From Eledone cirrhosa (lineage: Eukaryota), in NCBI GenBank assembly GCA_964016885.1, contig OZ024763.1, forward strand, positions 17,174,001-17,238,000: DNA of 64,000 nt, given 5' to 3'. The notes below the pieces were generated by a model. The model was given only the letters and a program-made list of their open reading frames with translations. It had not been told where the DNA came from and made no database searches. Below are positions 10,588-56,414 of this stretch, piece after piece. A program made the position numbers and the translations under genes. The number at the start of each line of letters is the position of its first letter. Position 1 is the first letter of the stretch.

Positions 10588-10623
10588 CCCTATATATTTC
10601 GGATTCACATCCATCAACTGGGG
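10588..10623 (-). ncRNA. Hammerhead-like motif with variant core CAGUUGA
   Basis: CCC-CAGUUGA-U-GGAU(GUGA)AUCC-GAAA-UAUA-UA-GGG; stem II covaries with the copy at 56379-56414. Confidence 0.55.
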
Positions 10624-10841
10624 GTTTTTTTTCTGGGGTGGGGGAAAAGGTTGTCTGTCGGACAATATATATATATATATATATATATATATATATATAT
10701 ATATTAGAAAGTGAGGTTTTTTTTACAAAATGAAAAATAACCGAGGTGTCCTACACGAGTGAAAGTATAAAGAAAAAGAGATGAAATCGAAAATGCAACT
10801 GAAGTCTTATTTTTTTTTTAAATATATATATTTATTTGGTT

Positions 10842-10879
10842 CCTTTACCGGTTTCGCAGTTCTTCTGCTTTTCAAAAGG
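10842..10879 (-). ncRNA. Minimal type-I hammerhead ribozyme, U3:A8 variant
   Basis: CCUU-UUGAAAA-GCAG(AAGAA)CUGC-GAAA-CCGG-UA-AAGG, then AATAAA. Confidence 0.75.
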
Positions 10880-10932
10880 TGAGTTGAGATGGAGGGTCTG
10901 TGGTTTTTCTCATATATATATATATATATAAT

Positions 10933-11113
10933 AATTGTTTCTACTATTGGCACAAGGTCAGCAAATACTCAGTACATTACTGGTACTTTATTTTATCGAC
11001 CCCCGGAAAGGATGAAAGGCAAAGTTAACCTCGGCGGGATTTGAACTCAGAATGGCAAGGGCCAAAACTCTATGCGTCAAAGCATGGTGTCCGACCCTCC
11101 ACCGATGCTGCCA
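10933..11113 (-). mobile_element. SINE family A copy
   Basis: Reverse complement of the family A consensus. Confidence 0.85.
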
Positions 11114-12406
11114 AACTGAAGTTGTAGCCACAGTATAGAAGATACCAACTGACATGTTTGGGGCAGCCACAAAGCACTCAATTGTACGAAAAGGGATACA
11201 TTTTTTGTCCTCAGTAAACACACAAAGTCAGGAAAGTGTGAGACCAAGAATAAAGTATCCAATTGCATACAGCCATAATAAATAGCACAACATCGATAAA
11301 TACAAACAAGTCGAAGATATATATATATGTATATATATATATATATATATATATATATATATATATATATATGTATATATATATAACCAAAGATTAATAT
11401 GGTTTGTTGATTACTCAACGAATACAATTTTACAAATAAACAACCAATATATACTAAAAAATATATATATATATGTATATATATATATAATAAAATATAG
11501 AGAAAAATACTGCAGGTAGCACATGGATAACATGTAATAAAATGAGTCCCTCATCAGTGATTTGCCGACGATCATCGATATATATATATATATATATATA
11601 TATATATATATATATATGTATATATATATAAATGTATATATATATATATATATATATATGTATATATATATAAATGTATATATATATATAAATGTATATA
11701 TATATATATATGTATATATATATAAATGTATATATATATGTATATATATATGTATATATATATATGTATATATATATAAATGCATATATATATGTATATA
11801 TATATAAATGTATATATATATATATATATATATATATATGCATATATATAAATGTATATATATAAATATATATATATATGCATATATATATTTTTTAATG
11901 CTATCACCACACATTATTGTTGAATAATTTATATATTTAATTTTTAGTCATATTGTATTTATTGTATGTATGGCTACTTGCAACTATATAGCTCTTTGTC
12001 TGGAAGTCTTCAATGGACAAATATCATTATAGAGGTGGGGGGGGAGGGTACTTGTGTATCTGTTGTATTGTCTTTCTGGTCTTTATCATGTGGTAAACTG
12101 GTGGTTCTTGGGTTAAGAGCATGTCCAAATATAGAGATGTATATATATATATATATATATATATATACACTATGGTATATATATACATACACACTCATAT
12201 ATATATAGATAGATATAGAGATATATACACTGCAAACTGCGCACACACACACATATATATACACAAAACATATGCTCACACACACACACACGCACACACA
12301 TATATATACACAAAACATATGCTCACACACACACACACGCACACACACACACACACACACACACACATATAGATATATACACACACTACAAACTACACAC
12401 ACACAT

Positions 12407-13020
12407 CAGGGTAGGAGTGGAGTTTAGTGAGGAATTCCAGATACAAGTAGGTGAACATCAGGGTTCAGTCCTCAGCCCGCTCGTGTTCATTATAGTCCTC
12501 CAAGCCATAACAGAGGAGTTTAAGACTGGCTGTCCATGGGAACTTCTCTATGCTGACGATCTGGTTCTTATAGCAGAATCAGTAGAGGAGCTAGAGAATA
12601 AATTCTGGCTATGGAAACAGCAGTTGGAAGCAAGAGGACTGAGAGTGAACCTAGCTAAGACAAAAGTGTTGATGAGTAGAAAAGAGGACAAAACTCTGAT
12701 TCCGTCAGGGAAATGGCCATGTTCGATATGCAGAAAAGGAACTGGCATAAATTCTATAAAATGCACACAATGCAGATCCTGGGTACATAAGAGATGTAGC
12801 GGGATAGCAGGCAAACTAACAGGTAGGGAGAACTATGTATGCAGTAGATGTACAGGGAAATTAGACAGTAGAAGTCGCATTGATAGAAACATTTTTCAAA
12901 TGCAGGAGGGCGCTATAGAAGTGGTGGATAGCTTCCGGTACCTAGGAGATTAGATTAGCATGGGAGGGGGGTGTTCCGTGGCCATAGTATCTAGAATAAG
13001 GACGGGTTGGAAGAAGTTGT
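12407..13020 (+). mobile_element. RTE-clade LINE reverse transcriptase fragment (decayed) with an embedded C4HC3 finger
   Basis: HQGSVLSPLVF...ELLYADDLVL...NLAKTKV...CSIC...CTQC...HKRC...CSRC...SFRYLG, in-frame stop, then SRIRTGWKK. Confidence 0.93.
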
Positions 13021-13318
13021 CTTGCTCATATGGGAACTGATTCTGGCTTGATTTCTACAGCTGGATGCCCTTCCTAACACCAACCTCATTTACAGTGAGT
13101 GGTGGGTGCTTTTTTGCCGTGGCGCCTCCACGACCACTTTGCAGTGGAATGATATGGACCCCAGTCCCTATCATCTCATTTCTACATCTGAGTAAACTGG
13201 AGCAATGTGAAATAAAGTGTCTTGCTCAAGGAAACCACACATCACCCGGTCTGAGAATTGAACTCACAACCTTTCGATTGCAAGGCCAATGCTCTAACCA
13301 CTAAGCCATGTGCCTCCA
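13021..13318 (-). mobile_element. tRNA-derived SINE family B (Meta-like core, RTE-type tail)
   Basis: Minus strand GGAGGCACATGGCTTAGTGGTTAGAGC (A box)...GAGTTCAATTC (B box)...CCTTGAGCAAGACACTTT...GGTGTTAGGAAGGGCATCCAGCTGTAGAAA. Confidence 0.85.
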
Positions 13319-54357: not shown

Positions 54358-54411
54358 ATATTTATTAAAATGCTGTTGAAGTGTGGATACATTTTTTTGG
54401 GACACCCTGTA
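54358..54411 (-). mobile_element. Tc1/mariner-type TIR remnant
   Basis: TA-CAGGGTGTCCCAAAAAAATGTATCCACACTTCAACAGCAT on the minus strand; related mini-element at 63308-63392. Confidence 0.55.
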
Positions 54412-54927
54412 TATATATATATACACACACACACACACACACACACATATATATATACAGAGAGAGAGAGAGAGACATGCATACACACACACACACATAT
54501 ATATATTAACACACACACACACACACACTCACATATATATATATATATCAACACATACACACACACACACACACACATATATATATATATATTAACACAC
54601 ACACACACACATATATATATATTAACACATACACACACATATATATTAACACACACACACACACACACACATATATATATATATTAACACACACACACAC
54701 ATATATATATTAACACATACACACACACATATATATTAACACATACACACACACACATATATATATATTAACACATACACACACATATATATTAACACAC
54801 ACACACACACACACACACATATATATTAACACATACACACACACATATATATATTTGTCAGTAGTCATGTGAAAAGGGTTAACCTCACAAATGAGACAGC
54901 AATATATTGTGACAAGTGGTGAGACAG

Positions 54928-55732
54928 TGCCCTGGGGTAGAGAGTGTGGTGGGGTAGAGTGTGCCCTGGGGTAGTGTGTGTGTGCTGGGGTAGAGAGTGC
55001 CCTGGGGTAGAGTGCCCTGGGGTAGAGTGTGGTGGGGTAGAGTGTGGTGGGGTAGAGTGTGCTGGGGTAGAGTGTGCTGGGGTAGAGTGTGCTGGGGTAG
55101 AGTGTGTTGGGGTAGAGAGTGCTGGGGTAGAGTGTGCTGGGGTAGAGTGTGCTGGGGTAGAGAGTGCTGGGGTAGACAGTATGCTGGGGTAGAGTGTGCT
55201 GGGGTAGACAGTGTGCTGGGGTAGAGTGTGCTGGGGTAGACAGTGTGCTGGGGTAGAGTGTGCTGGGGTAGACAGTGTGCTGGGGTAGACAGTGTGCTGG
55301 GGTAGAGAGTGCTGGGGTAGAGTGTGCTGGGGTAGAGTGTGCTGGGGTAGACAGTGTGCTGGGGTAGACAGTGTGCTGCGGTAGACAGTGTGCTGGGGTA
55401 GACAGTGTCCTGGGGTAGAGTGTGCTGGGGTAGAGTGCCCTGGGGTAGAGTGTGTGCTGGGGTAGAGTGTGCTGGGGTAGAGAGTGCTGGGGTAGAGTGT
55501 GCTGGGGTAGAGTGTACTGGGGTAGACAGTGTGCTGGGGTAGAGAGTGCTGGGGTAGAGAGTGCTGGGGTAGAGTGTGCTGGGGTAGACAGTGTGCTGGG
55601 GTAGACAGTGTCCTGGGGTAGAGTGTGCTGGGGTAGAGTGCCCTGGGGTAGAGTGTGTGCTGGGGTAGAGTGTGCTGGGGTAGAGTGCCCTGGGGTAGAG
55701 TGTGCTGGGGTAGACAGTGTCCTGGGGTAGAC
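54928..55732 (+). repeat. 16-18 bp G-rich minisatellite
   Basis: Unit GTGTGCTGGGGTAGA(CA/GA); one GGGG run per unit. Confidence 0.95.
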
Positions 55733-56062
55733 ACACTTCAAACCAACACATTGTATGGATAAACAAACATGAAGTTGGAGATAATAATATTATACACACA
55801 TACAGATACACACAACCACATACACACACACTCACACACACACAAACACATATAAACACACACACACATACATAAATATATATACATAGACACACACACA
55901 CATTCGCAAACACATATATATACACACACAAACACATATATCCATATACACACATATATATATATATATATATAATGTAGGAGGTGAGTTTTATTGTAGT
56001 ACAATAAAGCAATGCAGATATCGGATAAGAAGCACTCTACAGTTTGTGGGACTGGAGTATGC

Positions 56063-56166
56063 ATAATATAAGATCAAAAGATGGTTAAAGGAGTTCCATA
56101 TATTTTGTGAAATGCGCATAATAAAATATATGGAACTCCTTTAACCATCTTTTGATCTTATATTAT
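56063..56166. repeat. Palindrome with 44-bp arms
   Basis: ATAATATAAGATCAAAAGATGGTTAAAGGAGTTCCATATATTTT and its reverse complement. Confidence 0.9.
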
Positions 56167-56378
56167 ATATATATATATATATATAAGAGGGTGTTAAAGT
56201 TTGCTTGAAGCATTGTGAAATGTGTAAAATACGTAGTTTAGAAAGCCACAACAATGCAGAGGGAAATCTCGAGGTAGGAAGTGAATGATAGATAAGAGAA
56301 ATAGGAGAAAGTGAAAATAGAGAGAGACAAAGATGAAAACAAAACAAAGGTAGAAGGGTTACCGTAGTGGAGATTTAA

Positions 56379-56414
56379 TCCCAATATTTCGGGCTCACGC
56401 CCATCAACGGGGGA
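56379..56414 (-). ncRNA. Hammerhead-like motif with variant core CCGUUGA
   Basis: UCCC-CCGUUGA-U-GGGC(GUGA)GCCC-GAAA-UA-UU-GGGA-UUAAA. Confidence 0.58.

What the first reader, a model, noticed from the sequence alone, without database searches (positions are those of the whole stretch)
10588..56414. Two covarying hammerhead-like motifs share a non-canonical CNGUUGA core
10588-10623(-) and 56379-56414(-) both read CCC-C(A/C)GUUGA-U-stem(GUGA)-GAAA-(UA)n-UH-GGG...AUUAAAUCUC. Stem II covaries at two pairs (GGAU/AUCC versus GGGC/GCCC) around the same GNRA loop. Both have U at the normally conserved A6 and lack U4. Because the deviation is shared between diverged copies, it may be a conserved atypical hammerhead variant rather than decay (inference from only two copies).
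Basis: partly seen in the sequence, partly recalled or inferred. Interest (0 to 1): 0.7.

Follow-up and report, generated by a model that had tools for sequence, protein, structure and literature searches.

The report
Relaxed-core hammerhead of Penelope retrotransposons
The two motifs are hammerhead (self-cutting RNA) folds at the ends of two abundant Penelope-type jumping-gene families, whose thousands of copies share changes at two normally fixed core letters while keeping the letters that do the cutting, so the RNA likely still cuts, but slowly; cutting itself is untested.

Summary
Both motifs are minimal type I hammerhead folds in the pseudo-LTRs of two Penelope-like retrotransposon families (RT plus C-terminal GIY-YIG, Nematis-like, 70% protein identity), inserted in (TA)n. 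The odd core is the family norm, not copy decay: 3,927 genome matches, against 13 old copies with a canonical core on the same scaffold. One family has an intact 879-aa ORF between near-identical repeats. The core is derived, and positions 4 and 6 do not covary. Position 4 takes all four bases across sister subfamilies. A6U recurs in a small sister subfamily and in unrelated telomeric Penelope elements. C3-G8, G5, A9, G12-A14 and both stems are kept despite about one neutral change per site. The extra U after A9 is a known Penelope feature. Published mutagenesis predicts weak cutting, and insertions run uncut past the site. Best reading: an attenuated, likely protein-assisted dimeric hammerhead. 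Cleavage is untested and no RNA run was listed. The scan had no note on this family by sequence, but noted other atypical-core Penelope hammerheads, one in this genome. New variant of a known kind.

The parts
10367..10665 (-). 5'-truncated insertion of Penelope-like family A (pseudo-LTR only), between (TA)n tracts
   Evidence: 94% identical over 299 nt to both repeats of the tandem element L031; flanks
10588..10623 (-). Family A minimal type I hammerhead-like motif: stem I CCC/GGG, stem II GGAU/AUCC with GUGA loop, GAAA, palindromic AUAUAU helix III strand, predicted cut after A17 at 10591
10613..10620 (-). Variant core C3 A4 G5 U6 U7 G8 A9 plus extra U
   Evidence: family consensus
10421..10567 (-). 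Putative pseudo-LTR intron (AAG|GUAAC donor-like site, AG|AUUU acceptor-like site); inferred, not shown by RNA
   Evidence: motif positions; same donor-like and acceptor-like sites in family B; Penelope pLTR introns described in PMC4209133
56183..56539 (-). 5'-truncated insertion of Penelope-like family B, ending about 10 codons into the ORF (ATG at 56213) and followed by (TA)n
   Evidence: 92% identical to the repeats of intact element L033
56379..56414 (-). Family B minimal type I hammerhead-like motif: stem I UCCC/GGGA, stem II GGGC/GCCC with GUGA loop, GAAA, palindromic AUAU helix III strand, predicted cut after U17 at 56383
56403..56410 (-). Variant core C3 C4 G5 U6 U7 G8 A9 plus extra U
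   Evidence: family consensus
56268..56362 (-). Putative pseudo-LTR intron of family B (ACG|GUAAC to AG|AUUU); inferred

Best explanation
These are the pseudo-LTR hammerhead motifs of two recently amplified Nematis-like Penelope retrotransposon families, and their altered core (U4 to A or C, A6 to U) likely makes a slow, probably protein-assisted ribozyme that would cut only as a dimer. Shown: the element anatomy, the family-wide core, its derivation from a canonical core, retention of the catalytic letters and stems, and insertions that run 150-260 nt past an uncut site. Inferred: in a tandem transcript two motifs about 3.3-3.45 kb apart pair through their palindromic A15.1-U16.1 strands, and each core cuts the partner site after H17. 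Reverse transcription starts downstream of the 3' motif, so fast cutting would discard the template end. Selection would then keep the chemistry (G12, G8, C3-G8, G5, A9, A13, A14) while tolerating or favouring rate-lowering changes at 4 and 6.
For: Element: RT and GIY-YIG ORF between two copies of the motif; L033 has an uninterrupted 879-aa ORF and repeats identical at 479 of 480 nt. Core is the norm: against 13 canonical copies. Selection on the motif: A and B share 93 of 207 fourfold sites (45%), and A, B and C share 22 of 137 (16%), yet 11 core and closing positions are unchanged (0.449^11 = 1.5e-4; 0.161^11 = 2e-9). Both stem II changes between A and B are compensatory, and the helix III strand stays palindromic at three lengths or sequences. 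Family C was reached by protein search, not by motif. A6U recurs in a 5-copy sister subfamily CAGUCGAA and in the second hammerhead of 3 of 3 distinct telomeric EN-minus elements, 53-65% identical to each other and 26-30% to family B. Literature: natural A6C cuts weakly in Mg2+ and better in Mn2+ (PMC7151607); viroid U4C lowers activity yet supports infection (PMC3088659); the Anolis PAc hammerhead cuts only with protein and uncut RNA is the main insertion substrate in vitro (PMC11167929). Most of 29 sampled A and B copies end 150-264 nt downstream of GAAA, at two sites about 44 nt apart, the Penelope tail pattern.
Against: No cleavage was measured. [quoted passage not shown] The nearest-neighbour model does not give the dimeric hammerhead as the lowest-energy fold (A: -16.2 against -18.2 kcal/mol; B: -20.8 against -38.2), though it ignores core contacts and also misses the neighbouring U3-A8 motif. 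The p-values are inflated by ascertainment, since A and B were noticed for these letters and most genome patterns fixed them. The same letters are also needed for the fold, so conservation does not separate catalysis from structure.
Confidence: 0.55

Rival explanations
1. The motif no longer cuts but is kept as a folded RNA element, for example a binding or dimerisation site for the element's protein during RNP assembly or reverse-transcription priming.
For: Double core mutants are low-activity in vitro (PMC9901934). Hammerhead mutants do not reduce PAc insertion in vitro (PMC11167929). Naiads reach high copy number without canonical hammerheads (PMC8557442). Position 4 is free across the clade. 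Insertions span the uncut site.
Against: All chemically important letters are kept. Position 17 is A, U or C in the lineages seen and never G, although G is the commonest single-copy change there (18 of 27 in family A); this is weak, because several patterns required H at 17.
Confidence: 0.25
2. The ribozyme is a vestige in stepwise decay, carried along by successful master elements, with no present function.
For: The A lineage reads as a ladder CUGACGAU, CUGUUGAU, CAGUUGAU, and the C lineage as CUGAAGAA to CCGAAGAA. U4 was lost several times. Copy number says nothing about selection, since copies are dead on arrival.
Against: Changes fall only on positions 4, 6, 7 and 17, while stems change by compensation. 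U6 is held with an otherwise intact core across telomeric elements only 53-65% identical in protein.
Confidence: 0.12
3. The core is a compensated, fully active variant in which A4 (or C4) with U6 swaps the roles of U4 and A6.
For: A4 with U6 appears three times independently: family A, the CAGUCGAA subfamily and L111.
Against: Seven combinations of positions 4 and 6 occur, so they do not covary. No positive epistasis was reported in this region apart from C3-G8. A U4-A6-U7 contact is my recollection only; the structure papers were not held and one search found no source.
Confidence: 0.08

Closest known systems
Minimal type I hammerheads of metazoan Penelope-like elements (Cervera and de la Pena 2014, PMC4209133; main text parts 1-2 of 4 and supplement parts 1-2 of 3 read)
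   Same: Position in the pseudo-LTR, short stem I, extra base between A9 and G10.1, G10.1-C11.1 pair, palindromic helix III strand for dimer formation, dispersed truncated copies, tandem pairs about 3 kb apart and inverted pairs.
   Different: All 56 representatives in their alignment keep U4-G5-A6 (their descriptor required it); the only core variant described is U3-A8. Here U4 and A6 are both changed family-wide.
Natural hammerhead core variants A6C (phage Bcep176) and U4C (viroid) (PMC3088659, section 8 and passages; PMC7151607, parts 1-2 of 4)
   Same: The same two positions are altered; catalytic G8 and G12 are kept.
   Different: Those are single changes in isolated examples, and A6 goes to C. 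Here A6 goes to U together with a change at 4, in about 4,000 genomic copies and several lineages.
Nematis clade of EN+ Penelope-like elements (Craig et al. 2021, PMC8557442; passages and supplement passages)
   Same: RT followed by C-terminal GIY-YIG with the two Cys and two His, a Cys-rich linker, SDKGxEFxV and KTHK motifs as in the Nematis rows seen, partial tandem and inverted insertions, (TA)n targets.
   Different: The assignment rests on motifs seen in 3 Nematis rows, not on a tree with named references. That paper reports canonical hammerheads for C-terminal EN+ clades.
PAc Poseidon element of Anolis (PMC11167929, passages)
   Same: Pseudo-LTR hammerhead upstream of two reverse-transcription start sites that give a tail; insertions come from uncut RNA.
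   Different: The passages I saw mention no U4 or A6 change in PAc, and its cleavage was measured; here the core is variant and nothing was measured.

Membership tests
Hammerhead ribozyme, minimal type I | Three-way junction with stem I, stem II and A15.1-U16.1 followed by H17 | tested here: met
   compensatory stem II changes between A and B; helix III only as an intermolecular palindrome
Hammerhead ribozyme, minimal type I | C3-G8 pair, G5, A9, G12, A13, A14 | tested here: met
   unchanged in A, B, C and the other subfamilies; partly imposed by search patterns
Hammerhead ribozyme, minimal type I | U4 and A6 of the CUGA turn | tested here: not met
   A4 or C4 and U6 are the family consensus; so filed as a variant, not as a canonical member
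Hammerhead ribozyme, minimal type I | Site-specific self-cleavage after H17 | not testable with these tools
   needs an in vitro assay or RNA end mapping
Hammerhead ribozyme, minimal type I | G excluded at position 17 in amplifying lineages | tested here: inconclusive
   27 scattered non-A17 copies in family A, 18 of them G, none amplified; lineage states A, U, C, but the patterns favoured H
EN+ Penelope-like element | Single ORF with RT and C-terminal GIY-YIG | tested here: met
   RVT_1 E 3.5e-11; GIY-YIG E 3e-4 at 21.4 bits, just under the 22.6 cut-off
EN+ Penelope-like element | Pseudo-LTRs, partial tandem and inverted copies, 30-40 nt tail | tested here: met
   the tail here is about 44 nt
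EN+ Penelope-like element | Spliced intron in the pseudo-LTR | tested here: inconclusive
   donor-like and acceptor-like sites shared by A and B; no RNA data
Nematis clade | Placement with named Nematis RTs and the DKG-region and linker motifs | tested here: inconclusive
   motif likeness to 3 Nematis rows and unlike the Neptune row; no tree with named references was built
Naiad or Hydra clade | N-terminal endonuclease (Naiad); DKT motif and no CCHH (Hydra) | tested here: not met
   endonuclease is C-terminal, motif is DKG, Cys and His residues present

The most novel reading that the evidence does not exclude
Penelope elements have repeatedly evolved a tuned class of hammerhead in which the CUGA turn is remodelled (N4, U6) so that cutting is gated by the element's own protein or by another metal ion. 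In telomeric relatives this U6 form works as one half of an obligate heterodimer with a canonical hammerhead, giving one-sided cleavage of the transcript.
Probability: 0.2. Interest if true: 0.72.

Novelty: new variant of a known kind. Interest (0 to 1): 0.45.

Why it matters
U4 and A6 are treated as near-invariant, and the published Penelope hammerhead searches I read required them, so such families are invisible to those descriptors. What the Penelope hammerhead is for is still open. This genome holds a natural allelic series at positions 4 and 6 on related scaffolds, including an intact element. That makes it directly testable whether these retrotransposons select for slow cutting, need cutting at all, or rescue a weak core with protein. 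If the RNAs turn out inactive, the result is still a clear case of a hammerhead fold kept without catalysis.

Tried and rejected
RNA evidence: no RNA holder listed; 2 of the 4 listed runs were laid as contigs and cannot show RNA ends. Alternative register U3-U4-G5-A6-U7-G8 (reading UUGAUG as the core) was rejected: it leaves two unpaired C before GAAA and no A9, and old copies with CUGACGAU in the same place fix the register. A split or second canonical core elsewhere in the element was rejected: the scan found only the variant motif in L031-L033; CUGANGA-like words lie in the flank or inside the ORF. Flank-only DNA trees were poorly resolved; the IQ-TREE run timed out and FastTree on 47 rows was used instead (3 rows dropped for a nested insertion or misparsed core, and at most 5 rows kept per motif label). 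Whether A6U arose once or twice in A and B is unresolved. The family C count pattern was off by one base and was not used. Searches for more telomeric relatives gave two short weak bacterial matches, not followed, and nothing in viral contigs. L063 and L064 gave a U6-type hit upstream of the ORF that I treat as chance. PMC11014351 (passages) held nothing on U4 or A6 variants. No covariance model or R-scape test was run: too few independent lineages, and the MAFFT alignment misregistered the 4-bp and 5-bp stems. Paper searches that found no report of this core. Lunse et al. 2017 (about Penelope hammerhead variants), Martick and Scott 2006 and Scott 2013 were not held, so a prior description cannot be excluded. 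The activity values of PMC9901934 and the hammerhead file S2 of PMC8557442 were not seen and may bear on the claims.

Full report
Observation. Both motifs are present as described. A structure scan with a free core found three motifs in the window and none in 10 shuffles. The window is microsatellite-rich DNA from a 3.0-Gb genome, probably an animal, and lies at G000:C24:17174001-17238000.

Host element. The shared pattern matches 3,927 places in G000, control 0, as two main haplotypes, A and B, often in inverted pairs and sometimes in direct pairs 3.3-3.45 kb apart. [quoted passage not shown] L033 (B) has an uninterrupted 879-aa ORF and repeats identical at 479 of 480 nt; the 7 other repeat pairs tested scored 72-98% in a window that partly runs past the repeat. 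The window copies are 5'-truncated insertions in (TA)n, 94% and 92% identical to the full-length repeats. Among 22 A and 7 B copies from the first 30 loci, most 3' ends cluster at 219-228 or 260-264 nt (A) and 162-169 or 206 nt (B) after GAAA; three A copies end elsewhere. This matches the two-start-site tail described for PAc (PMC11167929, passages) and means the templates were uncut at the 3' motif, or re-ligated. Protein motifs resemble the Nematis rows of PMC8557442.

Is the core the norm? Yes. With the core free, 63 of 70 listed A places and 66 of 68 listed B places carry the variant core and none CUGANGA (my count of distinct places among the first 100 rows of each). Of all 89 places with U4 on this scaffold, only 7 have A6. 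A direct search for the canonical core on the GGAY stem found 13 copies with heterogeneous loops, which I read as old.

History. A sister family C, reached by protein search, is 57-58% identical to A and B; A and B are 70% identical. Family C carries CCGAAGAA with a CUGAAGAA subfamily; related subfamilies carry CGGAAGAA, CAGAAGAA and CAGACGAA. The 13 closer metagenome relatives with a motif behind the ORF all keep U4 and A6 (36 motifs in 80 loci against 0, 0 and 1 in shuffles). A protein tree groups this genome's families (0.98) and gives ladders CUGACGAU, CUGUUGAU, CAGUUGAU in the A line and CUGAAGAA, CCGAAGAA in the C line. U4 was thus lost several times, to all three other bases, and A6U arose once or twice in A plus B (support 0.79, unresolved). 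Positions 4 and 6 do not covary.

Selection. A and B share 93 of 207 fourfold-degenerate sites, and A, B and C share 22 of 137. Yet C3, G5, G8, A9, G10.1, C11.1, G12, A13, A14, A15.1 and U16.1 are unchanged, stem II changes by compensation, and the helix III strand stays palindromic (AUAUAU, AUAU, AAUU). The nominal probabilities (1.5e-4 and 2e-9) overstate the case because of ascertainment and because the age of A6U is uncertain. A6U recurs outside A and B: in a 5-copy subfamily CAGUCGAA with its own diagnostic letters and in three distinct telomeric, endonuclease-lacking elements from metagenomes. Single-copy changes at A6 in the C group are G 16, U 8, C 7 of 31 (my count), so two further fixations to U have a chance of about 0.07: suggestive only.

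Function. Literature predicts a penalty. A6C cuts poorly in Mg2+ but well in Mn2+ (PMC7151607). U4C lowers activity yet supports viroid infection (PMC3088659). All double mutants of the CUGA region except the C3-G8 swap were low-activity in one type III ribozyme (PMC9901934). Penelope minimal hammerheads are weak in vitro even with a canonical core (PMC4209133), and the PAc one needs protein and is dispensable for insertion in vitro. Folding energies do not favour the dimeric hammerhead over alternatives. I commit to an attenuated, likely protein-assisted dimeric ribozyme (0.55), with a non-catalytic fold (0.25), decay (0.12) and full compensation (0.08) as rivals. The idea that such an element copies itself from uncut RNA was also in an earlier scan note that I read.

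Novelty. Hammerheads in Penelope pseudo-LTRs, the extra base after A9 and dimer folding are known (PMC4209133; review PMC6765202, passages; bioRxiv 10.64898/2026.07.22.740005, part 1 of 5). I found no report of a family-wide N4/U6 core in nine searches, but the paper on Penelope hammerhead variants by Lunse et al. was not held. The scan's notes had nothing by sequence or by these words, and several notes on other atypical Penelope hammerheads. Verdict: new variant of a known kind, interest 0.45.

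Noticed in passing
L095:1710 and 2481; L104:2914 and 3698; L111:2251 and 3006: Three telomeric RT-only Penelope-like elements (CCCTAA repeats) each carry two different hammerheads 755-784 nt apart: a canonical core with helix III strand ACACGU and a U6 core with ACGUGU. The strands are fully complementary only to each other (-6.0 against -2.3 and -3.1 kcal/mol), suggesting an obligate heterodimer. L096 has the same protein as L095 and its contig ends after the first motif.
   Followed up: partly
L044, L048, L052, L060, L061, L065 (behind the ORF): Metagenome relatives carry an A3-U8 swap of the C3-G8 pair (AUGANUAN); five of the six form a clade at 0.98 support. 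I did not see this swap in the papers read.
   Followed up: partly
window 10842-10879 (-): A third minimal hammerhead of another repeat family, core UUGAAAA (the known U3-A8 variant), helix III strand ACCGGU; a 99% copy lies in L037 and diverged matches at window 2524-2661 and 6629-6696.
   Followed up: partly
window 5177-5287 (-): 5S rRNA match above the Rfam gathering score (46.1 bits against 38), with an internal deletion, set in a microsatellite tract; likely a pseudogene or a 5S-derived SINE head.
   Followed up: no
window about 10928-11114 (-), with copies at 168, 3562, 18200, 21633, 22719, 25359, 27561, 30525, 31328 and others: An abundant repeat of about 185 nt, 85-92% identical between copies, at least 10 in the window; SINE-like, not identified.
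   Followed up: no
window 56070-56159: A long perfect hairpin (34-bp arms) directly beyond the (TA)n tract at the 3' end of the family B insert.
   Followed up: no
window 31825-32104 (+): A diverged match (68% over 301 nt) to the region behind the ORF of family C locus L127; not examined.
   Followed up: no
L172, L176, L178; L124:733; L128:513; L137:600: Further Penelope-type hammerhead families in this genome with other stems; L176 lies behind a related endonuclease remnant.
   Followed up: no
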